NCBI GenBank assembly: GCA_943354605.1 | Contig: CALRCK010000002.1 | Coordinates: 71,186-135,185 of the forward strand | Direction: 5' to 3' | DNA from: Candidatus Uhrbacteria bacterium | GTDB lineage: Bacteria > Patescibacteriota > Patescibacteriia > UBA9934 | Length of the DNA stretch: 64,000 bases | Shown here: positions 7,776 to 55,824 of the stretch, in pieces | How positions within the stretch are numbered: the stretch's first letter is position 1 | How the letters are laid out: every line of letters starts with the position of its first letter | Position numbers and translations under genes: made by a program | The notes under the pieces: generated by a model | What the model saw: the letters and a program-made list of their open reading frames with translations, nothing else | Database searches by the model: none | Told to the model about the DNA's origin: nothing

Positions 7776-7784
7776 ACGACCAGG

Positions 7785-7900: not shown

Positions 7901-7909
7901 GTCCTGCCG

Positions 7910-9070: not shown

Positions 9071-9139
9071 AAGACCGAGTATCGTATCAGTTTTTGGCCA
9101 TTTGGTCAACGAAAAACGGGAGGGAAAATAAAAAAGTTG

Positions 9140-9175
9140 AGATCAAAAAGTGGCTCAGATTAGCCACTTTTCGCC
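9140..9175 (-). terminator. Terminator hairpin AAAAGTGGCTCAGATTAGCCACTTTT downstream of the 9200-10429 gene. A near-identical hairpin lies at 55825-55860.
   Basis: Inverted repeat GTGGCT...AGCCAC followed by a T-run on the minus strand. Confidence 0.5.
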
Positions 9176-10555: not shown

Positions 10556-12088
10556 TCATACAATCTCCTCCTTCTTTCCGAATGCCACAACCAGGCCGCC
10601 CGTCATCCACAAATACGGTGCGAGCGTTCTTGCTTCAAGATACGTTGCAAGAAATGCATTGACCGCAACCGCGATCATGGTTCCAGCAACCCCCAAGGCC
10701 AACGCACGAACTTCTGGGTCTTTTGATTCGCGATACACGCGCAAACACACAGAAAACAAGGCAATATACATCACGAGATATGCGCCAAGCCCCAACGTCC
10801 CCAATTCGCCCCACATGCTGAACCAATTGTTGTCGATATACCCCTCGGTACCGTACACGCCAAACGGCAAACCAAGTTGATCGTACACATCGGTATTCCC
10901 CAGTGCCGCAACGGCTCCTCCGCCGTATGTTCCCGGCCCATGGCCAAACAACGGCGACGACGGCACCACGGTCCACACGGTTTGCGCCATCCAGTACACG
11001 CGACCAAGCCCGAAATATTCGCCTTGCCATCGTGTGTAAGAGAATGCCTCAAAAAATCGCTCGCTCAGTGTTTGGCTCGACGAATCGATGAGTTGATTCA
11101 CAACAAGGCCAGAGAGTGAAAGATATCCAGCAACGAGCGACGCGCCAATAAGCGTTGCAACGAAAACTCGCTTATCGCGCTTGATGACGAGTGCGATAAA
11201 GAAAAACGCGAGCGCAAAACCAAACCACGCAGAACGGGAATACGCCAATCCCACAACAGGAATGGAAAACAGGAGAATGAACCACGCTGGCGTCTCCTCG
11301 TGTTTTGCAAGAACGCGCTCATATAAAAGCGCGACAAGAAGAATCAAAAAGAACGCCATGAATGTTCCTAACTGATCGTATCGACCGAGTGTGCCAAAAA
11401 CGCGTTCACCGGGATCCCAAAATTCTGTGGTGCCGGACGTGAGCTGTAAACTCCCAAGCGTTCGTTGTGCTGAAGGAAGAAGGAAGGTATCCAAAGGTTC
11501 ACCAATAACACGCTGAGCGTACCCAAGTGCGGCCTGAATGGTAACGATAACAAACATTGCGACGAGCAATTTTCGAACAACGTTTTTTGGTGGCGCAAGG
11601 TACACGACGATGAAGAACAGCAATACGAACCGGAATATTTGTCGCAAGCCAAGAATCGCAACCCATGGAGAAAGCGTGTTGATGACAACGGAAACCAACG
11701 CAAGAAAGATCACGACGCAAAAGGCAACATCGAGCGGTGTGCGCTTAAACACGATCGAGCCCGTGATCATTCGCCACAACACCACCGCGAGGAGCAAATA
11801 GACAACGAGCTCGGAGCCGTATCGCGCAAACACATACACGTCGTCTGGAACCCACTTCAGCAAAAACGGCTCGAATGGAAGATACGTCGCAAAGGCAACA
11901 AGCGTCCATGTTGGCTTAGCGAATGTAAAGGCGATGCCGATAATGACGAGTACCGCAGCAACAACAAGTGTCGACGAAAAAAACACCGTACCAAGAAACC
12001 CCAGTGCAAGGAGCACGGTAAACCCAAAAAACGCAAGACGCGCATGCTCTTCCGACGCACGATACAACGAACGGAAATTCGGGATCAT
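10556..12088 (-). CDS. O-antigen ligase / Wzy-like polytopic membrane protein
   Basis: About 510 aa from ATG 12088 (MIPNFRSLYR...). At least 10 predicted TM helices plus a large periplasmic loop, the architecture of WaaL/Wzy-family proteins. The function is inferred from topology and the surrounding glycosyltransferase genes. Confidence 0.55.
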   Translation of the reverse strand: MIPNFRSLYRASEEHARLAFFGFTVLLALGFLGTVFFSSTLVVAAVLVIIGIAFTFAKPTWTLVAFATYLPFEPFLLKWVPDDVYVFARYGSELVVYLLLAVVLWRMITGSIVFKRTPLDVAFCVVIFLALVSVVINTLSPWVAILGLRQIFRFVLLFFIVVYLAPPKNVVRKLLVAMFVIVTIQAALGYAQRVIGEPLDTFLLPSAQRTLGSLQLTSGTTEFWDPGERVFGTLGRYDQLGTFMAFFLILLVALLYERVLAKHEETPAWFILLFSIPVVGLAYSRSAWFGFALAFFFIALVIKRDKRVFVATLIGASLVAGYLSLSGLVVNQLIDSSSQTLSERFFEAFSYTRWQGEYFGLGRVYWMAQTVWTVVPSSPLFGHGPGTYGGGAVAALGNTDVYDQLGLPFGVYGTEGYIDNNWFSMWGELGTLGLGAYLVMYIALFSVCLRVYRESKDPEVRALALGVAGTMIAVAVNAFLATYLEARTLAPYLWMTGGLVVAFGKKEEIV

Positions 12089-12241
12089 GAGATGATTATA
12101 ACAAACGTGGAGACGGCTCGCCGGGCCGTCTCGGGCCATAAACGCGAAGAGTCCCCCGATCCAGCCTTGCGGCCGAGTCGAGGGACTCCGTGTGGTCGGC
12201 GTTGCGTACGCCTACCCGTGCGAACGAACCCTCAGATCACG

Positions 12242-14275
12242 CTAGCAGCCGTGCCCCGGGTACACCGTGGCATCGCTGTCGTTGCAGTCGGCGCTGTCTT
12301 CCATGTACCCGTAGGACGTGTAAGTGGCCTTCTGCGTGCACGACAGAGGGTCGGTGCAGGCGTCGGGGTTGCCGTACCCATCGCCGTCGCCATCGGCGCA
12401 GAACAGGACGAGATCCTCGTCCACACTGCCGTCGCAGTCGTTGTCCACGCTGTCGCAGACTTCGGAGGCTCCGGGGTACACCCCATCGTCCCCGTCGTCG
12501 CAGTCGGTGGAGTCAGACACGTACCCGGCCGGAGCCGAGCACGCCGCGTCGGTCGTGGAGGAGTCGCCGTAGCTATCCCCGTCGCTGTCCGCGTAGAAGA
12601 CGCTGGTGACGCCTTCGTCCGTGCTGCCATCGCAGTCGTCGTCCGCACCGTTGCACACTTCGGGTTCGCCAGGGTTCAGGCTGGCGTCGCCGTCGTCGCA
12701 GTCGGCACACACGTCGTAGCCGTCTCCGTCGTAGTCGCCGTCGTCCGCGCTCCCCGAACAGTCGTTGTCCACCCCGTCGCACCATTCGATGTCGCCGGGG
12801 TAGGAATCGTTGTTCGTGTCGTCGCAGTCGGTGTTGTCGGCGGTGTAGCCGGAGGGCTCACTGCAGGACGTGGTGCTGATGGCCACGTTGCCGTAGCCAT
12901 CGTTATCCGCGTCCACGTACCACGTGAGGGCGTCCACAGCGCCGTCGTCCACCACGCCATCGCAGTCGTCGTCCACGCTGTTGCACGTCTCGAGTTCCCC
13001 GGGGTTGATTCCGGAGTCGGCGTCGTTGCAGTCGGTGAGGTCGAAGACGTAGCCGGAGGGCGCGGTGCCGTCGCACGTAGCGGTGGAGATGGAGGGATCG
13101 CCGAAGCTGTCGCCGTCGGCATCGGCGTAGGAACTGGTCCACGAGAGACCGTCGTCCGCGCTGCCGCTGCAGTCGTTGTCCACCCCGTCGCACGCCTCCA
13201 CTTCCGCGGGGTTGATTCCCGCATCGGTGTCGTCGCAGTCTGAGACGTTCGTGCTGTAGCCGGCGCCCGGATCCGCGCACTCGGAGGTTCCTACACCCGC
13301 ACCGTACCCGTCGCCATCGGCATCGGGGTAGTAGATGATGGTGGCGAAATCCTCGTCCGTGGAGCCGTCACAGTCGTCGTCCGCACCGTTGCAGACTTCG
13401 GCCGCACCCGGGTTGATGCCCAAGTCGCCGTCGTCGCAGTCGGTGGAGTCGGCGACGTAGTCCGAAGGCTCGTCGCACGCGGAGGTGGAGATGGAGGGAT
13501 CGCCGTACCCGTCGCCGTCGCTGTCCGCGTACCAGGTGAGGGCGTCGGTCGCGCCTTCATCGACGGTGCCTTCGCAATCGTTGTCCACCCCGTCGCACAC
13601 TTCCGTGTTGCCGGGGTAGGCGGTCGCGTCGGTGTCGTCGCAGTCCTCGCACGCGATGGTTCCGTCGCCGTCCAGGTCGGACGTACCGGCGGATCCGTCG
13701 CAGTTGAGGTCGATGGTGTCCGTGCAGCTCTCCACGGCGTACGGGTGAACGGTGGCGTCGGTGTCGTCGCAGTCGGTGTCGTTCTCGACGTACCCGACCG
13801 GAGCCGAGCAGCCGTCGATCGTCGCCGAGGCGTCGCCGTACCCGTCGCCGTCCGCGTCCGCGTAGAACGTCTTCTGGTCGGCGGCATCGCTGTCGATGTT
13901 GCCGTCGCAGTCGTCGTCTACGCCGTTGCAGACCTCCACCGAACCCGGGTTGATCGCCGGGTCGGCGTCGTCGCAGTCGTCGTCGGCCGTGAAGCCGTCG
14001 CCGTCCGCGTCGATGGGCTTGGCGGTGTCGCCGGTCTCACCGGTCTCGACCGAGTCCGAATCGCCGGTTTCCGAGTTGGTGTCCGGGACGGAGTCGGAAT
14101 CGGTCACGGTGCTGTCGCCGGTGCCGGTGTCGGAATCGCCGCAGTTGAGGTCAATGGTGACGGTGCCACCAAAGAGACCACCGGACGACTTCGTGCAATC
14201 GCCGGACGGCACCGCACAGGCATTGAGGACGAGGGTGACGAGAAAGGAGGGAACGAGAACGAGGGAACGGGTCAT
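12242..14275 (-). CDS. High-GC secreted/lipoprotein with ~11 tandem cysteine-rich repeats (DCDDxDxxxxPGAxExCNGxDDDCDGxxDE; MXAN 'putative metal-binding motif'-like)
   Basis: ATG at 14275 preceded by GGAGATTATC. N-term MTRSLVLVPSFLVTLVLNAC. GC ~68% with G/C-rich third codon positions; the repeats are visible directly in the translation. Confidence 0.75.
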   Translation of the reverse strand: MTRSLVLVPSFLVTLVLNACAVPSGDCTKSSGGLFGGTVTIDLNCGDSDTGTGDSTVTDSDSVPDTNSETGDSDSVETGETGDTAKPIDADGDGFTADDDCDDADPAINPGSVEVCNGVDDDCDGNIDSDAADQKTFYADADGDGYGDASATIDGCSAPVGYVENDTDCDDTDATVHPYAVESCTDTIDLNCDGSAGTSDLDGDGTIACEDCDDTDATAYPGNTEVCDGVDNDCEGTVDEGATDALTWYADSDGDGYGDPSISTSACDEPSDYVADSTDCDDGDLGINPGAAEVCNGADDDCDGSTDEDFATIIYYPDADGDGYGAGVGTSECADPGAGYSTNVSDCDDTDAGINPAEVEACDGVDNDCSGSADDGLSWTSSYADADGDSFGDPSISTATCDGTAPSGYVFDLTDCNDADSGINPGELETCNSVDDDCDGVVDDGAVDALTWYVDADNDGYGNVAISTTSCSEPSGYTADNTDCDDTNNDSYPGDIEWCDGVDNDCSGSADDGDYDGDGYDVCADCDDGDASLNPGEPEVCNGADDDCDGSTDEGVTSVFYADSDGDSYGDSSTTDAACSAPAGYVSDSTDCDDGDDGVYPGASEVCDSVDNDCDGSVDEDLVLFCADGDGDGYGNPDACTDPLSCTQKATYTSYGYMEDSADCNDSDATVYPGHGC

Positions 14276-14554
14276 GATAATCTCCAGGATCAGTGAGGGA
14301 AAGTGTCGTATCTGAGGGTTCTGTTTTGAAAGATTCGTGCCCGAATGAGGGCGTCGTGACATCGTGTCACTCCCCCATGCGAGGGACAAGGAAGAATAGT
14401 CTAAAAGTGTCGAAAAGTAAAGCAAAAAAGTGGAGAAAATTCAAACGACCTCGGACACTCGACCAACCCGCGTGGGGAAGGAAGAGGCCGAGGCCGTTCG
14501 TTGCGTGAGTCACCGAACCGTCACGCGGCGGGGTTGCTGCCGACTTCCGCACGC

Positions 14555-15301
14555 CTAGGGCGTGTACAGGTACTCGTAGCTGCCGTACGTGGCGTACGCC
14601 GTGGCGCTGAGGTCGTACCCGTTGACCGAGTACTGGACCACCGCGCAGGTGACGTTGCCGTCGTAGAACACCGCGTTGCCGGTGAGGCCGCCGCAGGCGT
14701 ACACGGAGAAGTCGCCGTAGCCGTCGGTCGTGGTGCTGAGGCCCGAGAGCTTCAGCACGTGACCGGTGGAGCCGGGGTACTCCGCGCACTCGCCCACGAG
14801 GTCGCTGGTGTAGAGCGGGGTCGGGACGGTGCCGTCGGACGCGAACCAGTAGGTGCTGTCCCCGCTGGTCATGTCGAGCACGGCCACGGAGTAGGCGGCG
14901 GCGGAGGTGACCGTACAGATCCGGGTGACGTCGTGGACGTCGTTGTCCGAGTCGTTGAGGTCGCCGCCGATCGCCACGTAGCCGGAGGGCTGGGTGCAGG
15001 ACCACGTCGAGCTGGCGGTGAGGCCGAACCCGTCGTTGTCCGCGTCCAGGTACCACACGATCTCCGTGCACGCGCTGGTGTCCTCCGCCGTGTCGGCGGA
15101 GTCCGCGGTGTCGTCGGCACCCGAATCCGCGGTGTCCGTGGAGTCCGTGTCCGTGTCGGTCGAACCGGTGGAGCCGGAGCTGCCGATGCCGCCGAAGCTG
15201 TAGCCGCCGGAGGCGGGGGCCTCGGAGCCGGTGTCGGGCGCCGGGCTGGACACGCCGCAGGCGGCGAGGGTGAAGAGGAACGGAACGAGGGTGGAACGCA
15301 T
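14555..15301 (-). CDS. High-GC lipoprotein, hypothetical (one WYxDADxDGFG...C..PSGYV repeat related to the 12242-14275 gene)
   Basis: ATG 15301 preceded by GGAGAGACTCTC. Lipobox FTLAAC. GC ~68%. Confidence 0.7.
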   Translation of the reverse strand: MRSTLVPFLFTLAACGVSSPAPDTGSEAPASGGYSFGGIGSSGSTGSTDTDTDSTDTADSGADDTADSADTAEDTSACTEIVWYLDADNDGFGLTASSTWSCTQPSGYVAIGGDLNDSDNDVHDVTRICTVTSAAAYSVAVLDMTSGDSTYWFASDGTVPTPLYTSDLVGECAEYPGSTGHVLKLSGLSTTTDGYGDFSVYACGGLTGNAVFYDGNVTCAVVQYSVNGYDLSATAYATYGSYEYLYTP

Positions 15302-15482
15302 GAGAGTCTCTCCGAGGGTGACACGGCCCGTGCTTTTGCTAAGCGCGGGTTGTGGCAGAAGTGAAACTTTCGCTTCACTGCTCGCACAATTCTGTGTCCA
15401 TTCCTATAAAATCTTGACCGAGTATTGTAGCAAAAATTTGGAACTTTGTCAATGATCAAAGCTCGGTTCGAGCCGACGAGAA

Positions 15483-15598
15483 CGGTTTTATTTGCGACGA
15501 GTTTGGACGCGCTTCGAGCAAAGTTCGCGAGGCGTACTTCTCGGTACGTTGAGCGAATTTGCGAAGAAGCAAGTTCAAAATCGGCCAAATAAAACTGT
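15483..15598 (+). repeat. R1 palindromic element, copy b
   Basis: ...GAGTTTGGACGCGCTTCGAGCAAAGTTCGCGAGGCGTACTTCTCGGTACGTTGAGCGAATTTGCGAAGAAGCAAGTTCAAAATCGGCCAAAT... Confidence 0.7.
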
Positions 15599-15719
15599 TC
15601 TCAAAAGCGAACACCCCGGGCGACCGCTTCACTCCCCCGTAGTTGGGAAGGAAGGGTCGCACCGGGGTGCGCGTGGTTGCCGCGTTCACCCACACGGCAG
15701 GTCGGGCTGGGGAGCCCTA

Positions 15720-16352
15720 CTAGTACGTGTGGCAAGCCGTGTCGGGCGGGGCGAAGCTTCCGCCGAGCGGGCTCACCACACCGTTCTCGACCATGAACGA
15801 CCAGTTGACGTCCGTGCGGTAGCCGCTCGAGTCGTAGCCGGTCATGCCCGCGCAATCGGGGCTGCCGTTCACGATCGTGGCGAGGTAGCGCGAGTCGTCG
15901 TTGGTCGTGAGGCCCTCGAGCGCCTGGCAGAAGCCGTTCTGCGTGTACGGAGTCGCGGACGTGAGCCCGCAGGTGATCTCGTACATGCCGTCGCGGATGC
16001 CGGTGGCGCCGTAGCCGACGACCTCGCCCGTCGAGTTGGTCAGCTCGGGGAGCGGGAGGAAGGCGGTCTCCCAGCCGAACTCCGCGTCGTTGTACTCCTC
16101 CGAGCCGAAGCCGAAGGTGGAGTAGCTCTGGCCCGAGGCGTTCACCGGCATGGTGGCGCTGAAGAACCAGGCGACGCTGGCGCCCACGTCCGTCTGCCCG
16201 AAGGCGTAGGACTGGTTGCCGTAGTCCGAGATGCCGTTGCCGTCGAGGTCGTCGATGGCCACGATCTCCTGGACTTCGCCGCCCGAGACGTCGGGGCCGG
16301 AGGAGTAGGTGGAGCAGGCGGGGAGGATGGTGAAGAGCGCGATGAGGATCAT
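15720..16352 (-). CDS. High-GC lipoprotein, hypothetical
   Basis: ORF runs to 16466. Probable start is ATG 16352 (MILIALFTILPACSTYSSG), preceded by GGAGACACAGTC. Lipobox LPAC. Confidence 0.65.
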   Translation of the reverse strand: MILIALFTILPACSTYSSGPDVSGGEVQEIVAIDDLDGNGISDYGNQSYAFGQTDVGASVAWFFSATMPVNASGQSYSTFGFGSEEYNDAEFGWETAFLPLPELTNSTGEVVGYGATGIRDGMYEITCGLTSATPYTQNGFCQALEGLTTNDDSRYLATIVNGSPDCAGMTGYDSSGYRTDVNWSFMVENGVVSPLGGSFAPPDTACHTY

Positions 16353-16502
16353 GACTGTGTCTCCGAACGGGTGGAAGAAGGCCGGGGGTTCCCGGCGACT
16401 CGGGTTGCGAGCCACCTGGATGTCCAGGCCTTGGCAGAAGTGAAGGATTTCCTTCACTGCTTGCAAGGACTGGCTTACAGGACTTCCTCATTTTGACTAT
16501 TT

Positions 16503-16612
16503 TCGGCTTGCTCGTCGCACATTCGCTCAACGTACCGAGAAGTACGCCTCGCGAACTGTGATCCTCGCGCACCGAAACTAGCCTAAAATGAGAAAGTTCT
16601 GTGTAAAACTCA
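16503..16612 (-). repeat. R1 palindromic element, copy c (inverse orientation)
   Basis: TATTTTCGGCTTGCTCGTCGCACATTCGCTCAACGTACCGAGAAGTACGCCTCGCGAACTGTG...CGAAACTAGCC. Confidence 0.7.
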
Positions 16613-16837
16613 TGTTCAATTGTGAACCAAGTACTATAGCAAGAATTTGAAGTTTTGTCAATGATTGAGGTTCATCAATCATTCATTTTGCTGCAAATGC
16701 TCTTGTATTGAGAAGCGTCGCGAACGGCCGGGGGAATCGAGGCTTGTGGCCCCTATCCCCCAGCCGAACCGTTGCGTGGTCACCGTGTCCTTGCCCGTCA
16801 GCCCCACTTCGACATGGGGCCTACTAGGGCGAAGGAA

Positions 16838-17818
16838 TCAGCGCACCGTCACCGAGCTGCCGCTGCCGACCGGACCGGCGAAGAAGCGGATGCCGCCGTG
16901 GCCGTAGCCCACCCCGCCGATGCCGGCGGTCGAGCTGTCGACCATGTCGTACCCGCCGCCCACGAAGAGCTCGATGTTCACCGGCCCGAAGGCCTGGAAA
17001 TCGATCCCCACCTGCGCCTGCCCGCCCGTACGGGTGGCGGAGCACAGGGGGTCGCCCGTAAAGGCGCCCTCGCAAACGAACGACGGACCGATGCCGACGA
17101 CGAGGTCCGCCCCCTCACCGAGGTTCTGCACCAGCTCCGGGAGGGCCCGGATCGAGGTGGCATCGGCGCTGAAGCCGTACCCACCGTCGATCTCGAGGGC
17201 CACCCACGTGTTCGCGTGGACGTCCCAGGAGAAGCGGCCGAAGAGCTCGGTGCGGTCCGACACCCAGGCATCGCTGCCCGGGAGCGGCGGGGCCACCGTC
17301 CCCATCTCGGACAAGCCGATCTGGAAGCGGGTGCCCGACACGCGGACCGTCTCGGTGTGCTCGGTGTGCTCGACGACCGTCGGGTTGACCGTCACGTCCG
17401 ACGCCGCCACGTTCACGACCGGGGCCGGGACGTTGACGACGATCGGCCGGGTCTGCTCCGCACGCAGCGCCTCGGTCAGCTCCGTGATCTCCGCCTTGAG
17501 CGACTCGATCTCCGCGGTGTGCGGGTCGGGCTGCGGGGCGGAGGCGGCGGGGGCCGGGGCGGCGGGCGGGGCGGCGGGGGCCTTGGGCGCGGCGGGCTTC
17601 GGGGTGCTGGGCTTCGCGGTCGCCTTCGGCTTGGCCGGGGCCGCGGGCTTGCACGACGACTTCGCGGCGCACTTGGCGCGCAGCTCGGCGAGCTGGGCCT
17701 CGAGGGCCTGGCGCTCGATGGCGTCGCGCACGACCTCGGTCTCGAGAAGCGAGGGGTCGAGGGTGGCGCCGTCGTCGGCGTAGGCGGAGAGGGTGAAGGA
17801 CAGGAGCAGGGTGAGCAT
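16838..17818 (-). CDS. High-GC secreted protein, hypothetical (signal peptide, coiled-coil, Pro/Ala/Lys-rich linker, Gly-rich C-terminal domain)
   Basis: 326 aa. N-term MLTLLLSFTLSAYA. GC ~70%. Confidence 0.65.
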   Translation of the reverse strand: MLTLLLSFTLSAYADDGATLDPSLLETEVVRDAIERQALEAQLAELRAKCAAKSSCKPAAPAKPKATAKPSTPKPAAPKAPAAPPAAPAPAASAPQPDPHTAEIESLKAEITELTEALRAEQTRPIVVNVPAPVVNVAASDVTVNPTVVEHTEHTETVRVSGTRFQIGLSEMGTVAPPLPGSDAWVSDRTELFGRFSWDVHANTWVALEIDGGYGFSADATSIRALPELVQNLGEGADLVVGIGPSFVCEGAFTGDPLCSATRTGGQAQVGIDFQAFGPVNIELFVGGGYDMVDSSTAGIGGVGYGHGGIRFFAGPVGSGSSVTVR

Positions 17819-18424
17819 CGGATTGATTCTCCTCGGCCGGATGGCCGATGGTTCGGGTCAAGAATTGCGCGGGCCGGATGGCCTACTTGAGCATTTCGCG
17901 CTCCAGAAGTTCGGCGTCGACCGGGTGTTGGAGGGAACACCCAGAACACCAAACTCCTGGAGAACGAAATGCCCTGTTTTCTTTGACCTTTCTCCGATGG
18001 AATCCTTTATTCAAGGACAGACCATCATACCAAGAAACGCCCAAAAAGTCAAATATTGGCGAATGTTAGAGAAGAAAATTGACCAAAATAAAAACCCTTT
18101 CCGGAGACCCTATGATCACAGATTGCAACGAGGAGGAGGCGTCACAAACGTTTCGTAGGGTCCCCGCAAAAGGCTTTCGTGAGCAAAGGGAACCAAAAGC
18201 AGGCGCAAGCGTCAAGAATCTATCAACAATGAACCGGGATAAGTGAACCTGGCCTGAAGTGACCTTAGATGGCATTGAGGGGGCGGGTCTGAATCCTTGA
18301 AAAGAGAATGGACGGGACGAGGCTGGGAGTACGAGGTACTGCGACAAGAAATGACACCCTTGAATTTTGGGGTTTTAAAACTGGGTCACAAAATGTGATC
18401 TGAATCGAAAGTCGATGAAAAGTG

Positions 18425-18545
18425 AAATTGATTTCGAAAATACACGATTGTCGATCGTAAACGGCGCTATCAGCGACCTTGCGCATCGCCAAAATCGACC
18501 AGCGTTTCCTTAATGCAACTCAGTTGCGTTTACAAAACACCCTGT
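18425..18545 (+). repeat. R5 repeat (~120 bp) shared with 29400-29525 in inverse orientation
   Basis: ATCGCCAAAATCGACCAGCGTTTCCTTAATGCAACTCAGTTGCG matches the reverse complement of TTCTTAACGCAACTCATTTGCATTAAGAAAACGCTGGTCGATTTTGCCGAT. Flanking segments are ~70% similar. Confidence 0.55.
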
Positions 18546-18690
18546 TTGAAATCAAATACCCCCAACTCTCCCCGCCCAACTCAGGCTGGTCGAGCGTCGC
18601 CGATGATGCGTCGTGTCGTCGCTTCCGTCACGTCAATCCAAGATTCACCTCCCTCCAACTCCCTCCTTCGTAAGGAGGGAGAGGTATCAC

Positions 18691-19335: not shown

Positions 19336-19339
19336 ACGT

Positions 19340-25300: not shown

Positions 25301-25474
25301 TTCATTGAATATTGACTTTTCCGCGTATTTCTGATATCCTTTCACGTCATGCGAAATTGTGTGAGTCCGGGTTTTTGAACGGCGAAGTTCCCTTCGCCCT
25401 TCCAAGCCCCGGATTCCCGGGCACCGCCGCAAACCAGCCACTCGGCTGACCGGCACCCCTCCCTGGAGACTCGC

Positions 25475-25993
25475 ATGAAGCGCCTCGTTCTGTCCCTCGC
25501 CCTCATCGCCGCCGGCTGCGCCAACACGCAGTCCGGCTCCACCTCCACCACCAGCCCCCTCGCCGCGACCTGCGACGTGCCGGCGGACACCACGCTCAGC
25601 ACGTTCAACGCGGACGGCACCTTCCCGGTGACCGGTCGCGGCGTCTCGGCCGACGGCTCCATGGCGGTCAACCTGTGCGACGGCCCCGTGTTCCGGGTGC
25701 TGTTCGTGGAGGGCATGATCGCGGGCGACGCCGCCCAGCACCAGGGCGGCCTCTTCACCGACGGCCAGAACCACCTGGTGCACCACGACGACCTGATCAC
25801 CACCTCCACGACCCCGGTCGCGGCGGACGGTGGTCTCGACGGCGTGAAGGTGACCTGCTTCAAGGGGGTCAACTGCAAGGACGCCCCCGACGAGCCGGCC
25901 CCGGCCGCCGAGGACGCCGTCAGCAACACGCCCGCCGCCCAGGCCGCCGAGCCGCAGGCCGCCACCACGGTCGCGCCCCCGCCGCACCCGTAG
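25475..25993 (+). CDS. High-GC lipoprotein, hypothetical
   Basis: ATG preceded by CTGGAGACTCGC. Lipobox LIAAGC. GC ~70%, unlike its flanks. Confidence 0.65.
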   Translation: MKRLVLSLALIAAGCANTQSGSTSTTSPLAATCDVPADTTLSTFNADGTFPVTGRGVSADGSMAVNLCDGPVFRVLFVEGMIAGDAAQHQGGLFTDGQNHLVHHDDLITTSTTPVAADGGLDGVKVTCFKGVNCKDAPDEPAPAAEDAVSNTPAAQAAEPQAATTVAPPPHP

Positions 25994-26134
25994 CAGGGAC
26001 ACGACGCCACCGGTAGTTTTCCAACGCGGCAGCTACCACGCGATGCCCGACTCCCCCACCATAGGGAGCCGGGCATCTGCAATTTTAGAAATACTTTTCA
26101 AAAGAAAAAGTCCTCACCGAAGTGAGAACCTTTT

Positions 26135-33640: not shown

Positions 33641-33924
33641 AGTGAACAACCAAATGGTTCAAGGATAGGGAGCCCTGAACACTGAATGTGATCACCGTAT
33701 AGTATAGCGTGTTCAAGGGTCAACGAATACTGGGGATGAAATGGGGACAGGATAGGGCTAAACTAAGTTTGAGACTAACTAAGTTAGTAGCAAACTTAGT
33801 TAGTGGCAGACTTTCAAAAGCATCCGCCCCGCAAACTCTTTCGAGCCGCGGGGCGGGCGTTGGCCGGTCGCTGCGTACGACCGGCCTGGCGTGGGTTGTG
33901 GAACCTACCGAACGGAGACCGAGA

Positions 33925-34686
33925 TCAGGCGGTGGTAGCGAGCCAGATGGCGAAGTCCAGGAACGCCTGGTTGTCGCCGCACTGCGAGCGGTAGATCGCA
34001 GCCTGCCCCGCGAAGACCGGGGCGACGACCTGACGGGCGCCCTGGACGTCCATAATGCGGCGCCAGCCGCCCTGTTCGCCAGCGATGCGAAATGCCTCCT
34101 CCACGAAGCGGTGAATCTTCACGGCCGCGACGTCGTCCACGCTGCCGGCGGCGAAGACCACCGCCTTCTCCACGAGCCATATCATGATCTCCGTTGCGTG
34201 GCGACGCTCGGCGATGGACTGAGCCTCGCCGTCCTTGCGCTCGGCGAACATCGCCTCGATTTCGGGGATGAGGCTATCCTCCCCCACGATTCGGAGGTAG
34301 ACACGCCAGGGCCGGATCTGCTGCTCGGCCCAGGCGCGGTAGTCCGCCTCCTCCTTGCGCTTCGTGCCGGCAGCGATCTGGTCCGCGAGCTCGGCGGCGG
34401 CACGCTCACGGGCAGCGCTGCGATCGGCACGGTTCGGAGCACCCTTACGCCACCAGCCGAAGACGGAGAAGGCGAGGGAGCCGCCGCCGATGAACGCGAC
34501 AGCAGCGATGAGGAGGCTCACGATGCGCGGGCCCGCCTCGGGCGTCCACAGCTTGAGCACGTGGGTGTCCACGAGACGCGCGTAGTCCGGGTCGGACACG
34601 GCCGCGAGGCTGCCGATGAGCACGAGGCTCGGGATGAAGAACGCGGGGTGGATGACGATGCGGTAGAGAAACCGGAGCAGGAACAT
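33925..34686 (-). CDS. High-GC membrane protein, hypothetical (two N-terminal TM helices)
   Basis: 253 aa, GC ~66%, inserted between ftsA and ftsZ. ATG 34686. Confidence 0.6.
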   Translation of the reverse strand: MFLLRFLYRIVIHPAFFIPSLVLIGSLAAVSDPDYARLVDTHVLKLWTPEAGPRIVSLLIAAVAFIGGGSLAFSVFGWWRKGAPNRADRSAARERAAAELADQIAAGTKRKEEADYRAWAEQQIRPWRVYLRIVGEDSLIPEIEAMFAERKDGEAQSIAERRHATEIMIWLVEKAVVFAAGSVDDVAAVKIHRFVEEAFRIAGEQGGWRRIMDVQGARQVVAPVFAGQAAIYRSQCGDNQAFLDFAIWLATTA

Positions 34687-34875
34687 GGCGGAAGCCTTCT
34701 TGTTGGGGGAACGAGGGAGGTTGAATGCCGGATTCGGCTTGGATATTCAATCAAAAAAATGAGAATTTGGCAAGCAAAAGCCAAGAAATAGCACTTGAAA
34801 AGGTTTTAGGGTGTAGGTTTTAGTCCAATCCATCTGCCACGAATCACTAACACCTATAACCTAAAATCTCCAAAC

Positions 34876-49562: not shown

Positions 49563-49571
49563 AAAGGTCGG

Positions 49572-51371: not shown

Positions 51372-51403
51372 GCGCACAGTATACCGCACTCGAACGAACA
51401 CCT

Positions 51404-52696: not shown

Positions 52697-52698
52697 AC

Positions 52699-54004: not shown

Positions 54005-54158
54005 ACACAAAAAGTATAGCAAGCTCGTAATAAAACGCGAAGAGACCCTCGACCGGCATGCCGATCGAGGGTCTCCGTTGGCCGGCGCTGCGTACGCCTG
54101 CCCGTGCTGTCTACCGACCGAACACCGAACCTTGACTCGAACCGCTGACCGATCCCCG

Positions 54159-55607
54159 CTACGGGATCGTGACGACGCCGTCGCCGCCGTTCATGACGCC
54201 GTCGCCGTCGGTGTCGTACTCGGAGTCGGTGGTCGAGCTGAGCACGGACACGCCGCCGATCGTGAAGACCGACGTGTGCACCGTACCGCCCGACATCCAA
54301 CCCCAGTACTCGACGCCCGTCGTGCTGTCGATGCAGTCCAGGTTGGCCTTGAGGCTGTGCCCCGAGACCGCCCCGAACGCCGACGTGCAGACCTCGCCGG
54401 TCCCGGTGGCGTACACGTACGGCCACCAGGTCGGGTCGTCGGGCGTGTACGGGTACACCGTCATGTCCGAGAGGAACAGGCTGCAGGTGTCGGTGCTCTG
54501 CACACCTTCCGCGCAGATCTCGCTGCTCGAGCTCGGCGTCATGTCCGCCGTGCCGTCGCAGTCCTCGTCCACCGCGTTGTCGAGGATCTCGGCCGCCCCG
54601 GGGTTGATGCCGGAGTTGCCGTCGTCGCAGTCGGTGTCGTCGGCCACGAATCCCGAGGGCGCACCGTCGCACGTGGTCTCCCACGTGGCCGGATCGCCGT
54701 AGGTGTCGCTGTCCGCGTCCGCGTACCACGCGTCGAACGTGAGCCCGTCGTCGATGCCACCCGCGCAGTCGTTGTCCGCGCCGTCGCACACCTCGGGGTT
54801 GCCCGGGAAGGCGGCGGCGTTGCCGTCGTCGCAATCCGTGCTGTCGCCGACGTAGCCGAGGGGCTGGTCGCACGCGATGTCGCTGGTGGCGGCGGACCCG
54901 TAGGTGTCGCCGTCGCCGTCGAGGTACCACGTGCTCTGGCCGCTCACGCTGCTGTCGGCGTCGTCCGCGCTGCCGTCGCAGTCCTCGTCCACGTCTGCCG
55001 CGTCGCACACCTCGGTCGCGCCGGGGTTGACCGCGACGTTGGTATCGTCGCAATCGGTGCTGTCGGTGACGTAGCCGCTGGGCTGGCTGCACGCCGTGGA
55101 GGTCGCCGAGGCGTCCCCGTAGGTGTCGCCGTCGGCGTCCGCGAAGTAGGTGGTGCTGCCGCCGGACTCGTCCACGGAGCCGTCGCAGTTGTTGTCCACC
55201 GTGTCGCACACCTCGGCTGCGTCCGGGTTGATGCTCGCGCCGGTCGTCGCGTCGTCGTTGCAGTCCATCCCGATCTCGCTGTCCGCGCTGATCTGGATGT
55301 AGTGCTTCGGGCCGCCGCTGAGGGTGAGGTTCACGCAGATGTAGTCCGCGTACCCCGACGAGTTGTCCGCGTAGATGTCGGTCCAGTCCGACGGCTCGAT
55401 AGCGAAGCCGTCCTGGTCGTCGTCGAGCGCGAACACGGCGCTGACACCGTCGGAGGTGCAGACCGAGAGGTCGCTGCCGCTGACGCGCTTCGTCGAAGCG
55501 GTGGCCATGATGCCGTACTTCGAGTTGATGGCGGAACCGGACTGCGTGGAGCAGCCGGTGGTGAGGATGATGCCGAGGCCGGTGAGGGCGATGAGGGAGG
55601 TGCGCAT
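54159..55607 (-). CDS. High-GC lipoprotein with ~7 cysteine-rich DCDDxNxxxNPGAxExCDxxDxDCDGxxDE repeats (same family as 12242-14275)
   Basis: ATG 55607 preceded by GGAACGGAG. Lipobox LTTGC. GC ~68%. Confidence 0.75.
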   Translation of the reverse strand: MRTSLIALTGLGIILTTGCSTQSGSAINSKYGIMATASTKRVSGSDLSVCTSDGVSAVFALDDDQDGFAIEPSDWTDIYADNSSGYADYICVNLTLSGGPKHYIQISADSEIGMDCNDDATTGASINPDAAEVCDTVDNNCDGSVDESGGSTTYFADADGDTYGDASATSTACSQPSGYVTDSTDCDDTNVAVNPGATEVCDAADVDEDCDGSADDADSSVSGQSTWYLDGDGDTYGSAATSDIACDQPLGYVGDSTDCDDGNAAAFPGNPEVCDGADNDCAGGIDDGLTFDAWYADADSDTYGDPATWETTCDGAPSGFVADDTDCDDGNSGINPGAAEILDNAVDEDCDGTADMTPSSSSEICAEGVQSTDTCSLFLSDMTVYPYTPDDPTWWPYVYATGTGEVCTSAFGAVSGHSLKANLDCIDSTTGVEYWGWMSGGTVHTSVFTIGGVSVLSSTTDSEYDTDGDGVMNGGDGVVTIP

Positions 55608-55824
55608 TGTCTGGAACTCCGTTCCTTTTTGAGGTCAACTGGCACGGCGCTCCCAAGGGGCAACACCGTTCGGTTATCCATCGGAAAGAGCGGGGTGCGC
55701 TTCCTCTGGGCCTAATGCTGCAAAAATGGCTAGCATTCGCGCAGGATTCGGGCCAGAGGAAGGAGGGGTGAGATTATCCGATTTTCTGCAAAACGTCAAG
55801 GCTTTTTGCTTGTGGCGAACAAAA

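What the first reader, a model, noticed from the sequence alone, without database searches (positions are those of the whole stretch)
12150..17900. Seven high-GC (~68-70%) secreted/lipoprotein genes inserted at four separate loci in a ~50% GC backbone
Genes at 12242-14275, 14555-15301, 15720-16352 and 16838-17818 form a tandem minus-strand island. Single genes at 25475-25993 (between the rplT terminator and tRNA-Asp), 33925-34686 (between ftsA and ftsZ) and 54159-55607 (between a RelE/ParE module and hisS) look the same. All have G/C-saturated third codon positions, and the six checked (all but 16838-17818) carry a strong GGAG(A) Shine-Dalgarno 6-9 nt before an ATG, whereas backbone genes (ftsZ, hflX, pyk etc.) show little or no SD. 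Five of the seven begin with lipoboxes (LNAC, LAAC, LPAC, AAGC, TTGC). Two carry 7-11 tandem DCDDxDxxxxPGAxExCNGxDDDCDGxxDE cysteine-rich repeats of the kind known from Myxococcota, and a third has one such unit. Four independent insertion sites argue against a simple chimeric contig and for repeated acquisition of, or an active cassette system for, surface-protein genes from a high-GC donor. Insertion into the otherwise conserved ftsA-ftsZ junction is especially unusual.
Basis: partly seen in the sequence, partly recalled or inferred. Interest (0 to 1): 0.85.

Follow-up and report, generated by a model that had tools for sequence, protein, structure and literature searches.

The report
Conserved GC-saturated surface-protein genes in Uhrbacteria
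A small-genome groundwater bacterium (Candidatus Uhrbacteria) carries seven exported-protein genes written in an extreme G/C-ending codon style, and related genomes keep the same genes in the same places with the same style, so this is a long-maintained second "codon dialect" for one class of genes and not a set of recent foreign insertions.

Summary
Seven ORFs at four loci have GC 0.67-0.73 and GC3 0.87-0.98, against backbone GC3 of 0.37-0.65. Six of the seven have a GGAG Shine-Dalgarno site, against 2 of 35 backbone genes. Five start with lipobox-like signals, and two are MopE-type (PF11617) repeat proteins. Independent assemblies reproduce the junctions, so the contig is not chimeric.

The interpretation (repeated acquisition from a high-GC donor, or an active cassette system) is not supported. 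The backbone is Candidatus Uhrbacteria (CPR/Patescibacteria). At least seven other Uhrbacteria genomes carry orthologues at the same syntenic positions, with the same GC3 excess (0.82-0.94 against 0.52-0.57) and the same SD sites, although backbone synonymous sites are saturated (dS 0.9 to infinity). No donor, phage relative, integrase, attC site or target duplication was found. The hg3 and hg4 families exist only in this lineage.

Each gene is a self-contained unit: near-consensus sigma-70 promoter, long structured leader, SD, GC3-saturated ORF, GC-rich terminator. The control regions are more conserved than the fast-evolving proteins. The bias is tied to the sense strand (C 0.58, G 0.34 at 4-fold sites) and is strongest at codon third positions. 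I conclude that the composition is actively maintained, most likely by selection at the codon or mRNA level. That cause is inferred, not shown. The ftsA-ftsZ spacer is a recurrent variable hotspot in this clade.

The parts
16838..17818 (-). hg4 CDS: signal peptide, two coiled-coil helices, Pro/Ala-rich linker, then a C-terminal domain predicted as an 8-stranded OmpX/Ail-like beta-barrel. GC 0.73, GC3 0.96.
   Evidence: AF2 gives pLDDT 75-90 for the barrel, residues ~160-320. Foldseek PDB top hits are Ail, OmpA-TM, OmpW, NspA, OmpX and PagL, probability 1.0, TMt 0.45-0.62. The family has 24 representatives in 1.84e9 proteins.
18024..18052 (-). hg4 promoter TTGACT-N17-TATGAT, followed by a ~200-nt leader (17819-18017) with GAGGAG SD at 17826-17834.
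   Evidence: The promoter and leader are conserved in L085, L087 and L089.
16710..16837 (-). hg4 GC-rich 3' UTR with the CACGCAACG motif.
   Evidence: Conserved in L085.
15720..16352 (-). hg3 CDS: orphan lipoprotein (LPAC). GC 0.67, GC3 0.97.
   Evidence: 9 relatives, 46-86% identity. The AF2 model is too poor to interpret.
16633..16661 (-). hg3 promoter TTGACA-N17-TATAGT with extended -10. The leader spans 16353-16625.
   Evidence: An identical promoter is present in L089.
16424..16473 (-). Conserved leader stem-loop of hg3 (CCAGTCCTTGCAAGCAGTGAAGG-AAAT-CCTTCACTTCTGCCAAGGCCTGG).
   Evidence: (I5). RNAalifold predicts 23 pairs, 8 with compensatory double changes. The segment is 96% identical to L085 over 99 nt.
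15602..15719 (-). hg3 GC-rich 3' UTR and terminator.
14555..15301 (-). hg2 CDS: lipoprotein (LAAC) with one DADNDGFG unit. GC 0.70, GC3 0.97.
15424..15452 (-). hg2 promoter TTGACA-N17-TACAAT. The leader spans 15302-15417.
15346..15394 (-). hg2 leader stem-loop, paralogous to the hg3 one. The outer stem is fully compensated relative to hg3.
14436..14554 (-). hg2 3' UTR and terminator. About 90% identical to L087 although the proteins are highly diverged.
12242..14275 (-). hg1 CDS: lipoprotein (LNAC) with 8-9 MopE-type Cys-rich units (PF11617) alternating with DxDxDG[YF]G units. GC 0.67, GC3 0.87.
14398..14425 (-). hg1 promoter-like site TTGCTT-N16-TAGACT. The leader spans 14276-14390.
12140..12241 (-). 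hg1 3' UTR: hairpin motif GGCGTACGCAACGCC-GACCA (12193-12212) and an intrinsic terminator (12140-12189). Nearly identical to the hg7 3' UTR.
25475..25993 (+). hg5 CDS: orphan lipoprotein (AAGC). GC 0.73, GC3 0.98. Lies between rplT and tRNA-Asp.
   Evidence: L084 has a positional counterpart (GC3 0.93; 33% identity in a forced global alignment) whose leader matches hg5's with compensatory changes. L087 has a small GC3 0.86 lipoprotein at the same site with no detectable similarity to the window.
25312..25474 (+). hg5 promoter (25312-25340, TTGACT-N17-TATCCT) and leader with a nested stem-loop (25367-25412). SD is GGAGA.
   Evidence: Compensatory changes relative to the L084 orthologue leader.
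25994..26086 (+). hg5 3' UTR and terminator.
33925..34686 (-). hg6 CDS: protein with hydrophobic N-terminal segments (probably two TM helices), not a lipoprotein and with only a weak SD. GC 0.68, GC3 0.88. Lies in the ftsA-ftsZ spacer.
   Evidence: Homologues at 28-39% identity occupy the same spacer in L003, L004 (two copies) and L006, with GC3 0.68-0.84.
34687..34773 (-). hg6 promoter-like site (34743-34773) and short leader. Conserved in L003 and L004.
33816..33924 (-). hg6 3' UTR: ACAACCCACGCC, hairpin GGTCGTACGCAGCGACC (33861-33882), CAACG, then terminator (33816-33857). More conserved across window, L003 and L004 than the CDS.
54159..55607 (-). hg7 CDS: lipoprotein (TTGC) with about 4 PF11617 units and unique N- and C-terminal domains. 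GC 0.69, GC3 0.96.
55608..55799 (-). hg7 promoter (55771-55799, TTGACG-N17-TAATCT) and ~160-nt leader with a long hairpin. SD is GGAG.
54032..54158 (-). hg7 3' UTR: motif GGCGTACGCAGCGCC-GGCCA (54079-54098) and terminator (54032-54076).

Best explanation
WHAT IT IS. The seven genes belong to a gene class that is conserved across Candidatus Uhrbacteria. The class is mostly inherited in place and was not recently inserted.

HOW EACH GENE IS BUILT. Each gene is its own transcription unit, in this order:
1. an AT-rich, near-consensus sigma-70 promoter;
2. a 60-300 nt leader that in several members starts with a conserved stem-loop and becomes C-rich towards the start codon;
3. a strong GGAG Shine-Dalgarno site (only a weak AAGAAGG in hg6);
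4. an ORF with a signal peptide, lipobox or TM segment, and almost exclusively C- or G-ending codons;
5. a GC-rich 3' UTR hairpin and an intrinsic terminator.

WHAT THE PRODUCTS ARE. They are fast-evolving cell-surface proteins: MopE-type Cys-rich metal/Ca-binding repeat lipoproteins, orphan lipoproteins, a coiled-coil protein ending in an OmpX/Ail-like beta-barrel, and a small membrane protein. I infer that they mediate contact with the environment or with a host cell.

HOW THE COMPOSITION PERSISTS. The extreme GC3 is actively maintained in this class while the rest of the genome stays near 52% GC. The most likely cause is selection on synonymous sites at the codon or mRNA level, coupled to a translation regime (long leader plus SD) that differs from the SD-less, partly leaderless housekeeping genes.

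SHOWN: composition, gene architecture, synteny, conservation of the bias across lineages with saturated synonymous divergence, sense-strand asymmetry, and absence of donors and mobility signatures.

INFERRED: the selective cause, high expression or mRNA stability, and the role in attachment. An ancient foreign origin for some families is not excluded.
For: 1. Lineage and synteny. FtsZ is 94-96% identical to Uhrbacteria/Patescibacteria MAGs. The order PDZ, Wzz, hg4, hg3, hg2, MopE, Wzy_C, GT4 recurs in whole or in part in L084, L085, L087/88, L089, L094 and L098. An rplT-adjacent lipoprotein is in L084 and L087. hg6 homologues lie between ftsA and ftsZ in L003, L004 and L006.

2. The bias is conserved. 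Mean GC3 of hg genes against backbone: window 0.94/0.57, L084 0.92/0.57, L085 0.94/0.57, L089 0.91/0.52, L094 0.86/0.56, L087 0.82/0.54, L086 0.93/0.75.

3. Age. Backbone dS to these genomes is 0.9 to infinity for most genes, even where FtsA is 99-100% identical. A neutral decay towards GC3 of ~0.55 should therefore be well advanced. My rough estimate is ~0.74 for the closest relatives and ~0.6 for deeper ones.

4. One dialect. RSCU correlation is 0.94-0.97 between unrelated hg families and between genomes.

5. Sense-strand, codon-centred bias. 4-fold sites are C 0.58, G 0.34, T 0.06, A 0.02 in both gene orientations, while the backbone has G > C. CGT is retained (0.25) above CGG (0.14), and CTC (0.76) far exceeds CTG. 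The adjacent UTRs keep 35-41% A+T and the promoters are at 0.40-0.47 GC.

6. Native control regions under purifying selection. Leaders and 3' UTRs are 83-96% identical where CDSs are 65-71%. The leader stem-loop has 8 of 23 pairs with compensatory double changes. Consensus promoters are found for 18 of 23 genes.

7. SD in 6 of 7 genes against 2 of 35.

8. No donor or vehicle. The hg3 and hg4 families are confined to this lineage. There are no viral hits, and no integrase, transposase, RT or target duplication.

9. Controls. MopE genes in two Bacteroidota genomes and one Myxococcota MAG have the GC3 of their own backbone.

10. Fast protein evolution. hg dN is 0.23-1.07 against backbone 0.004-0.46.
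Against: - No expression, tRNA or 16S data were available, so the selective cause is inference only.
- The one ribosomal-protein gene in the window (rplT, GC3 0.63) shows no comparable bias, so ordinary translational selection for highly expressed genes is weak in this genome and cannot by itself explain the class.
- The codon pattern also resembles that of generic high-GC bacteria, so it is compatible with an ancient foreign origin plus some maintaining force.
- GC3 of the class differs between genomes (0.82 in L087 against 0.94 here). This could be partial amelioration rather than a tunable drive.
- hg6 is less extreme (GC3 0.88; 0.68-0.84 in relatives), lacks a strong SD and shows presence/absence polymorphism (empty site in L005), so not every member need share one history.
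- dS estimates in GC3-saturated genes are unreliable.
Confidence: 0.6

Rival explanations
1. The genes were acquired recently and repeatedly from a high-GC donor such as Myxococcota, or are moved by an active cassette system, and landed independently at four sites.
For: - The composition is strongly atypical and sharply bounded.
- MopE-type repeats are common in proteins labelled Myxococcota.
- The units are self-contained, with own promoter and terminator, like phage morons.
- The ftsA-ftsZ site shows presence/absence and copy-number polymorphism: empty in L005, two copies in L004.
- hg5 lies about 330 nt from a tRNA gene.
Against: - Orthologues with the same bias sit at the same sites in at least seven genomes whose backbone dS is saturated.
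- Leaders, promoters and 3' UTRs are native and conserved.
- No donor was found for hg3 or hg4 among 5.8e9 and 1.84e9 proteins.
- No viral relatives.
- No integrase, attC, transposase or target duplication.
- MopE genes elsewhere match their host composition.
Confidence: 0.07
2. Ancient acquisition or native origin, with GC3 kept high by GC-biased gene conversion. These surface-antigen loci would recombine unusually often between strains, using the conserved leader and 3' UTR or the flanking genes as homology arms.
For: - Proteins diverge about 10 times faster than the backbone while the flanks and control regions stay conserved.
- UTR modules appear shuffled between neighbouring genes. For example, the 3' flank of the L084 hg3 orthologue resembles the window's hg2 3' flank.
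- GC is also raised in the UTRs, to ~0.62.
- gBGC has been argued for bacteria (Lassalle et al. 2015, PMC4450053, listed).
Against: - The bias is sense-strand asymmetric (C 0.58 against G 0.34 at 4-fold sites in both orientations) and codon-specific (CGT retained; GGC far above GGG). A strand-blind conversion bias does not predict this.
- Promoter and early-leader DNA inside the island stays at 0.40-0.47 GC, and the flanking genes are unaffected.
Confidence: 0.17
3. Continuing allele exchange with an unsampled high-GC gene pool, such as the host organism or an unknown extrachromosomal element of Uhrbacteria. CDSs at fixed loci would be replaced by homologous recombination.
For: - Orthologous slots hold very divergent alleles, at 26-60% amino-acid identity.
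- All families share one codon dialect.
- The encoded features, an OM-type beta-barrel and lipoproteins, are typical of diderm bacteria.
Against: - No such pool appears in very large protein, viral and metagenome collections.
- Backbone dS is already ~1 or more, so in-place divergence at the observed dN is sufficient and replacement is not required.
- GC3 of the whole class shifts together per genome, for example L087 is lower in all five genes. That points to a genome-level factor.
Confidence: 0.1
4. Artefact: a chimeric assembly or binning contamination that joins high-GC and mid-GC organisms.
For: Sharp GC steps in a metagenome-derived contig. Logan contigs around some hg genes are short.
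Against: The same junctions appear in an independent assembly of the same run (L001, L002, L097) and in MAGs or scaffolds from at least four other projects. The GC-rich tracts are gene-sized, each framed by a native promoter and terminator.
Confidence: 0.01

Closest known systems
Compositionally atypical genomic islets from horizontal transfer (classical genomic islands)
   Same: Sharp local departure from genome GC and codon usage. The cargo is surface or secreted proteins. One site is near a tRNA gene. One site (ftsA-ftsZ) shows presence/absence polymorphism.
   Different: There are no mobility genes, direct repeats or identifiable donor. The islets are GC-richer rather than AT-richer than the core. 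Orthologues occupy the same sites, with the same bias, in lineages whose synonymous sites are saturated, so the signature is maintained rather than fading.
Phage 'morons' (independent promoter-gene-terminator units of deviant composition, often lipoproteins)
   Same: Each gene is an autonomous unit with its own sigma-70 promoter and intrinsic terminator, has deviant nucleotide composition, often encodes a lipoprotein, and sits between unrelated genes.
   Different: They are not in a prophage, and no phage genes or viral relatives were found. They are conserved and syntenic across a bacterial lineage.
MopE / 'putative metal-binding motif' repeat proteins (PF11617)
   Same: hg1 and hg7 match PF11617 with 9 and 4 units (E = 2.8e-85 and 2.8e-33). 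They are Cys-rich, Asp-rich extracellular repeat proteins.
   Different: In Bacteroidota and in a Myxococcota MAG these genes have the codon usage of their host genome. Only in Uhrbacteria are they GC3 outliers. The other five genes are not in this family.
Eight-stranded outer-membrane beta-barrels (OmpX, Ail, NspA, OmpA N-terminal domain)
   Same: The predicted fold of the hg4 C-terminal domain: eight long antiparallel strands, Foldseek probability 1.0, TM-score up to 0.62.
   Different: There is no sequence-level family match. The barrel is fused to a coiled-coil stalk and a Pro-rich linker. It occurs in a phylum proposed to lack an outer membrane (PMC12102498), so where it would insert is unknown.
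Long stabilising 5' leaders of abundant surface-protein mRNAs (ompA, S-layer genes)
   Same: Strong promoter, long 5' UTR beginning with a stable stem-loop, strong SD, and an exported structural surface protein. This resemblance is drawn from general knowledge.
   Different: No half-life or expression data exist here. The leader motif matches no Rfam family. The coupling to GC3-saturated coding sequence has no precedent that I know of.

Membership tests
Recently acquired genomic island (HGT) | Composition deviating from the host genome | tested here: met
   GC3 0.87-0.98 against 0.37-0.65.
Recently acquired genomic island (HGT) | Mobility machinery or scars (integrase, transposase, flanking direct repeats, target duplication) | tested here: not met
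   Pfam on the neighbours found none. The repeat scan and the comparison of empty (L005) and filled ftsA-ftsZ sites show no duplication.
Recently acquired genomic island (HGT) | Sporadic distribution among relatives; absent from orthologous sites | tested here: not met
   The island, the rplT-adjacent gene and hg6 homologues are present at the same sites in several genomes. Only the ftsA-ftsZ site is polymorphic.
Recently acquired genomic island (HGT) | Identifiable donor lineage with closer homologues outside the recipient clade | tested here: not met
   The hg3 and hg4 families are confined to Uhrbacteria contexts. MopE hits are repeat-level only, at 38-57% over about half the query.
Integron gene cassettes | IntI integrase and attI next to the array | tested here: not met
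   No integrase in the window or in the syntenic loci.
Integron gene cassettes | Promoterless ORFs, each followed by an attC recombination site | tested here: not met
   Each gene has its own promoter and leader. The 3' elements are a small hairpin plus an intrinsic terminator, and no imperfect-palindrome attC architecture was seen. No dedicated attC model was run.
Phage moron | Autonomous promoter-ORF-terminator unit of deviant composition | tested here: met
Phage moron | Located within a phage or prophage genome | tested here: not met
   The neighbours are housekeeping genes. No viral relatives.
PF11617 Cu-binding_MopE repeat proteins | Significant match to the PF11617 HMM above the gathering score | tested here: met
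   hg1 scores 280.6 bits (9 units) and hg7 114.3 bits (4 units) against a cut-off of 27. hg2-hg6 have no match.
Bacterial lipoproteins | Signal peptide ending in a lipobox [LVI][ASTVI][GAS]C | tested here: inconclusive
   hg2 (LAAC) is canonical. hg1 (LNAC), hg3 (LPAC), hg5 (AAGC) and hg7 (TTGC) are relaxed variants. No LipoP/SignalP tool was available, and Lgt and LspA are not in the window.
Eight-stranded OM beta-barrel (OmpX/Ail/OmpA-TM) | Eight-stranded antiparallel barrel fold | tested here: met
   AF2 gives pLDDT 75-90 for residues ~160-320. Foldseek PDB hits have probability 1.0 and TMt 0.45-0.62. This rests on a prediction only.
Eight-stranded OM beta-barrel (OmpX/Ail/OmpA-TM) | Sequence-family membership (for example the Pfam OMP_b-brl or OmpA_membrane HMMs) | tested here: not met
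   No Pfam or NCBIfam hit at E <= 0.01.
Eight-stranded OM beta-barrel (OmpX/Ail/OmpA-TM) | Resides in an outer membrane and is assembled by BAM | not testable with these tools
   No whole genome was available. The literature proposes that Patescibacteria lack an outer membrane (PMC12102498).
Diversity-generating retroelement targets | Nearby reverse transcriptase and a template/variable repeat pair | tested here: not met
   No RT domain among the window proteins scanned. The repeats found are only the internal MopE units and a MITE-like element.
Known cis-regulatory RNA (Rfam) | Leader matches an Rfam covariance model at the gathering score | tested here: not met
   Only tmRNA and four tRNAs were found in the window.

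The most novel reading that the evidence does not exclude
The class may be written in the expression 'language' of a high-GC diderm partner because the genes or their products act in or on that partner. The supporting features are SD-led initiation, C/G-ending codons, consensus sigma-70 promoters, lipoboxes and an outer-membrane-type beta-barrel, in a bacterium whose own genes are SD-less and which is thought to lack an outer membrane. The barrel and the lipoproteins would be delivered into the host envelope. At the extreme, the units would be transferred to and expressed in the host, perhaps through the T4SS or pilus apparatus encoded nearby. The bias would then be held by selection imposed by the host machinery. 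A more moderate version, which is part of my best explanation, is a selection-maintained second codon dialect coupled to a separate translation-initiation regime within one small genome.
Probability: 0.05. Interest if true: 0.95.

Novelty: new variant of a known kind. Interest (0 to 1): 0.62.

Why it matters
Atypical composition is routinely read as recent horizontal transfer. Here the same extreme signature persists at the same loci across lineages whose neutral sites have turned over completely. So in these CPR genomes it marks a maintained gene class, and HGT or contamination filters would misclassify it.

If the cause is selection, this is a natural example of two codon and initiation regimes coexisting in a genome of about 0.75 to 1 Mb, which makes the cause testable with tRNA, ribosome and transcript data. 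If the cause is biased conversion, it would be by far the strongest case known in bacteria.

The genes are also good candidates for the host-contact surface of an uncultured episymbiont: fast-evolving Cys-rich repeat lipoproteins, and a stalked OmpX-like barrel in a supposed monoderm. The conserved leader stem-loop gives a handle for finding the rest of the regulon.

Tried and rejected
1. Chimera or contamination. Rejected, because independent assemblies and other MAGs reproduce the junctions.

2. Integron, transposon or prophage. No integrase, transposase, RT or phage genes, no target duplication at filled against empty ftsA-ftsZ sites, and no viral relatives of hg3, hg4 or hg5.

3. DGR-type mutagenesis. 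No RT and no template/variable repeat pair. Both A and T are depleted at third positions, not A alone.

4. 'MopE genes are intrinsically GC-rich'. Rejected by controls in two Bacteroidota genomes and one Myxococcota MAG. The Myxococcota contig I fetched turned out to be low-GC (GC3 0.45), so it could not serve as a model of a high-GC donor dialect.

5. Allele replacement inferred from 'close' relatives. The test failed, because even genomes with 99-100% identical FtsA have backbone dS of about 1, so in-place divergence suffices.

6. hg3 structure. AF2 gave pLDDT 44, which is unusable, so no fold search was attempted.

7. JGI metagenome scan with the hg4 profile found nothing. The leader-motif scan gave 5 hits, of which 3 were chance matches inside unrelated genes.

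8. NCBIfam gave no names for any of the seven proteins.

9. Literature searches for CPR or Uhrbacteria intragenomic GC3 heterogeneity, and for SD-less or leaderless CPR genes, found no prior description.

Full report
OBSERVATION

The window averages about 52% GC. It rises to 0.62-0.74 over 12000-18000, 25500-26000, 34000-34500 and 54000-55500.

They have GC 0.67-0.73 and GC3 0.87-0.98. A non-overlapping ORF set for the rest of the window has GC3 0.37-0.65, with no overlap and no additional outlier.

Third positions are almost free of A (0.00-0.03) and T (0.02-0.09) and favour C (0.55-0.71). The backbone is close to even.

An SD-like GGAG/GAGG/AGGA at -18..-5 is present in 6 of 7 genes against 2 of 35 backbone genes (Fisher p = 3.6e-5). 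A few backbone genes have a TATAAT-like box 12 nt before the ATG, which suggests short or absent leaders.

Five N-termini end in lipobox-like LNAC, LAAC, LPAC, AAGC and TTGC. hg4 has a cleavable-looking signal peptide, and hg6 has hydrophobic N-terminal segments. PF11617 (MopE motif) matches hg1 nine times and hg7 four times. hg2 has only one DADNDGFG spacer unit.

NOT AN ARTEFACT

A separate Logan assembly of run ERR5863123 contains ftsA-hg6-ftsZ (L001), rplT-hg5 (L002) and hisS-hg7-toxin (L097). MAGs and scaffolds from other projects show the same arrangement, as described below.

WHOSE GENOME

FtsZ is 94-96% identical to MAGs labelled Candidatus Uhrbacteria or Patescibacteria group, and 80 related ftsZ loci were retrieved. 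The neighbours are typical small-genome housekeeping genes: ftsA/Z, pyk, nrdR, hisS, hflX, der, smpB and tmRNA, rplT and infC. There is also a surface-polysaccharide set (Wzz-like, Wzy_C, GT4) and large T4SS-pilin-domain proteins.

THE KEY RESULT: THE CLASS IS CONSERVED AND SYNTENIC

hg4 and hg3 belong to tiny families, with 10 and 9 hits in 5.8 billion proteins. An exhaustive profile search for hg4 found 24 representatives in 1.84 billion proteins, and the only informatively named one is from Patescibacteria.

The contigs that encode these relatives all show the same order, in whole or in part: PDZ protease, Wzz-like, hg4, hg3, hg2, MopE protein, Wzy_C, GT4. This holds for L083/L084 (ENA GROS21), L085 (Logan SRR22387951), L087/L088 (GCA_943356565.1), L089, L094 (Hainich H41, on the same 236-kb contig as L004) and L098. 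L086 (GCA_016205975.1) has three MopE genes after the Wzz-like gene.

L084 and L087 also carry a small lipoprotein gene next to rplT, the position of hg5. The L084 leader matches hg5's leader with compensatory changes.

In every one of these genomes the orthologues are GC3 outliers with GGAG SDs. Mean GC3 for the class against the backbone:

| Genome | hg class | Backbone |
|---|---|---|
| window | 0.94 | 0.57 |
| L084 | 0.92 | 0.57 |
| L085 | 0.94 | 0.57 |
| L089 | 0.91 | 0.52 |
| L094 | 0.86 | 0.56 |
| L087 | 0.82 | 0.54 |
| L086 | 0.93 | 0.75 |

More distant relatives have similar outliers. L063 goes from 0.37 to 0.90 in a lipoprotein with Dicty_CTDC and TSP_3 repeats, L058 has Dicty_CTDC repeats, and L030 goes from 0.51 to 0.92.

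AGE OF THE ARRANGEMENT

Nei-Gojobori estimates between the window and these genomes give backbone dS of 0.9 to infinity for most genes (rplT and the ECF sigma factor are lower, at 0.35-0.59). This holds even for genomes whose FtsA is 99-100% identical at the protein level.

Neutral third positions have therefore largely turned over since these lineages split, yet the class holds GC3 at 0.84-0.98 in each. My rough two-state estimate is that a passive foreign signature would have decayed to about 0.74 against the closest relatives and about 0.6 against the deeper ones. This estimate is inference, not a tool result.

The hg proteins themselves diverge quickly (dN 0.23-1.07 against 0.004-0.46 for the backbone). 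At backbone dS of ~1 or more, that is compatible with weakly constrained or diversifying evolution in place. dS within GC3-saturated genes is compressed and unreliable.

ANATOMY OF A UNIT

Aligned on start and stop codons, 23 such genes show the following GC profile:

| Segment | GC |
|---|---|
| Promoter zone | 0.40-0.47 |
| Last 60 nt of the leader | rises to 0.62 |
| CDS | 0.65-0.73 |
| 3' UTR to about +80 | 0.61-0.69 |
| Further downstream | 0.41-0.49 |

Near-consensus TTGACa-N17-TAtaaT promoters, often with an extended -10 TGn, lie 108-309 nt upstream in 18 of 23 genes.

The leaders of hg2 and hg3 and their orthologues share a long stem-loop (…CCAGTCCTTGCAAGCAGTGAAGG-loop-CCTTCACTTCTGCCAAGGCCTGG…). 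In all the sequence I held, it occurs only upstream of GC3-rich lipoprotein genes. RNAalifold predicts 23 pairs, 8 with compensatory double changes, and three consecutive outer-stem pairs switch completely between the hg3 and hg2 types. It matches no Rfam family.

The 3' UTRs carry a small hairpin (GGCGTACGCARCGCC in hg1 and hg7, GGTCGTACGCAGCGACC in hg6), then CCAACG and a GC-rich intrinsic terminator.

These non-coding parts are 83-96% identical between genomes in which the CDSs are only 65-71% identical. For hg6, the 3' UTR is clearly better conserved than the protein, which is 28-39% identical.

The units are therefore native, regulated transcription units whose control regions are under purifying selection while the coding parts change fast.

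WHAT MAINTAINS THE BIAS

- All families, at all loci and in all genomes, use one dialect (RSCU r = 0.94-0.97).
- At 4-fold sites the sense strand is C 0.58, G 0.34, T 0.06, A 0.02 in both gene orientations, whereas the backbone has G > C.
- Preferences are codon-specific. CTC (0.76) far exceeds CTG, GGC far exceeds GGG, and CGT (0.25) is retained above CGG (0.14), which echoes the backbone's own CGY and CTY preference.
- The adjacent UTRs keep 35-41% A+T, and the promoters remain AT-rich.

A strand-blind mutational or conversion drive does not predict this pattern. Selection at the codon or mRNA level does. So would an origin in a high-GC genome, but that alone does not explain persistence.

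Against simple 'highly expressed gene' selection, rplT shows no such bias (GC3 0.63). Whatever acts here is specific to the class.

I therefore favour class-specific selection on synonymous sites, linked to the distinct leader-plus-SD expression mode. The confidence I give to that cause alone is about 0.4. It remains an inference.

GC-biased conversion at frequently recombining surface-antigen loci is the main rival. An unsampled high-GC exchange pool is a weaker one.

DONOR AND VEHICLE TESTS

- No integrase, transposase, RT or phage gene lies near any locus.
- No target duplication appears when the filled ftsA-ftsZ site is compared with empty sites (L005 has an 82-bp spacer). The hg6 unit sits exactly between the ftsA stop and ftsZ's own conserved promoter.
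- There are no viral relatives of hg3, hg4 or hg5.
- hg7's best non-identical hits are MopE-repeat proteins from many phyla, at 38-57% identity over about half its length. The best two examined are Bacteroidota T9SS substrates whose GC3 equals their backbone (0.39 against ~0.45; 0.18 against ~0.23). A Myxococcota MAG behaves the same way (0.47 against 0.45).

Composition is therefore a property of the Uhrbacteria setting and not of the protein family.

THE ftsA-ftsZ SITE

Across 78 related loci the spacer ranges from 53 bp to 6.7 kb, and about 15 loci carry 0.6 kb or more. The cargo differs between genomes:
- hg6-family genes in L003, L006 and the window, and two in tandem in L004, with GC3 0.68-0.88;
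- a different GC3-rich family in tandem copies in L016 and L017;
- large low-GC3 genes in L008, L011 and L026.

So this junction is a permissive hotspot in this clade and not a unique event. hg6 is the least typical member of the class: it has a weaker SD, is not a lipoprotein, and has lower GC3 in relatives.

FUNCTION (INFERRED)

- hg1 and hg7 are Cys- and Asp-rich metal/Ca-binding-type repeat lipoproteins.
- For hg4, AlphaFold2 with a 10-sequence alignment predicts two coiled-coil helices, a disordered Pro/Ala linker and an eight-stranded barrel (pLDDT 75-90). Foldseek aligns the barrel to Ail, OmpX, NspA, OmpA-TM, OmpW and PagL with probability 1.0 and TM-score up to 0.62.
- Patescibacteria are proposed to lack an outer membrane (PMC12102498). 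A stalked OmpX-like barrel there is unexpected, and it might insert into a partner's envelope. That is speculation.
- hg2, hg3, hg5 and hg6 remain orphans. The hg3 model was unusable.

COMPARISON AND NOVELTY

The units resemble genomic islets or phage morons in being autonomous and compositionally deviant, but they fail the tests for mobility, donor, sporadic distribution and phage context.

I found no description of a conserved GC3-saturated, SD-led gene class in CPR genomes.

I rate this a new variant of a known kind: compositionally atypical surface-protein islets whose signature is maintained and not transient.

VERDICT

- Best explanation: a conserved gene class with actively maintained composition. 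My overall confidence is 0.6. It is higher, about 0.85, for 'conserved and not recent insertion', and lower for the selective cause.
- Interest: 0.62.

Noticed in passing
window-wide, e.g. 12089-12105, 19336-19352, 51372-51390: Backbone genes almost never have an SD (2 of 35). Several (Wzy_C, the Wzz-like gene, the gene at 49572-51371) have a TATAAT/TATACT box about 12 nt before the ATG, which suggests leaderless or very short-leader mRNAs. ftsZ, in contrast, has a conserved promoter (33701-33723) and a ~60-nt leader.
   Followed up: partly
window 15479-15567 and 16512-16600 (inverted copies); L009 ~3210-3320: An ~89-nt MITE-like palindromic element (AGTTTCGGTGCGCG…CAAGCCGAAA[AC]T). It is present twice in the island, once inside the hg3 leader and once inverted upstream of the hg2 promoter. 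It also lies in the ftsA-ftsZ spacer of a relative, with further copies in L085 and L087.
   Followed up: partly
window 18066-18690, especially 18076-18219: A ~630-nt ORF-free spacer between the Wzz-like gene and the hg4 promoter. It contains a 145-nt block that is 93.8% identical to L087 (8276-8420), better conserved than most genes. In L083/L084 the equivalent spacer holds a GIY-YIG gene. This could be an unannotated small RNA or a regulatory region.
   Followed up: no
window 16838-17341 (hg4 C-terminal domain): A predicted OmpX/Ail-like 8-stranded transmembrane beta-barrel, fused to a coiled-coil stalk, in a phylum proposed to be monoderm. The family has only 24 representatives in 1.84e9 proteins.
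   Followed up: partly
window 33775-33803: A perfect-looking palindrome, CTAACTAAGTTTGCTACTAACTTAGTTAG, between the hg6 terminator and the ftsZ promoter. It may be an operator site.
   Followed up: no
window 58000-58700: An AT-rich patch (GC 0.41; ORFs 58092-58373 and 58363-58683 at GC 0.43 and 0.37). This is the opposite, more conventional kind of compositional outlier.
   Followed up: no
window 7769-9163 (+) / 7910-9109 (-): The called + strand ORF compared with L094 gives dS 0.09 but dN 0.19 at 64% amino-acid identity. That is implausible for a real reading frame, so the true gene is probably on the other strand or in another frame, or the region is non-coding.
   Followed up: no
window 39840-51401: A 3240-aa protein and a 609-aa protein with T4SS_pilin (PF18895) and Ig-like domains and normal codon usage (GC3 0.53). 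So being a surface protein is not sufficient for membership of the GC3-saturated class. The same holds for the cupredoxin lipoprotein at 29708-30217 (GC3 0.52).
   Followed up: partly
window 3648-5308: An ECF-type sigma factor (4769-5308) with an adjacent DUF5667 putative anti-sigma protein (3648-4772). They are conserved next to the island in L094. The hg promoters look sigma-70-like, so no link is evident.
   Followed up: no
L016 655-1386; L017 4700-9610: A second GC3-rich family (N-terminal motif FHVTDxTGRT), as 1 to about 5 tandem paralogues (GC3 0.69-0.88), fills the ftsA-ftsZ spacer in more distant Uhrbacteria. It has no Pfam match.
   Followed up: partly
L058 18415-19629; L063 17180-18352: In relatives with only 58% FtsZ identity and backbone GC3 of 0.52 and 0.37, the GC3 outliers (0.82 and 0.90) encode Cys-rich Dicty_CTDC / TSP_3 repeat proteins (the L063 protein with a lipobox). 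The phenomenon may therefore extend well beyond the window's genus.
   Followed up: partly
window 23348-23746 and 22872-23309: tmRNA (Rfam, 89.9 bits) lies immediately downstream of smpB. This is an ordinary arrangement.
   Followed up: no
window 52640-53137; L083/L084 ~9596-9748 and 8078-8230: Spurious-looking ORFs containing the 'LDPRLRGDD' peptide. Upstream of several backbone genes there are also TTCGCT(T/A)CGCTCAGGATGAC-type sequences. Both look like short dispersed repeat elements of the kind common in CPR assemblies.
   Followed up: no
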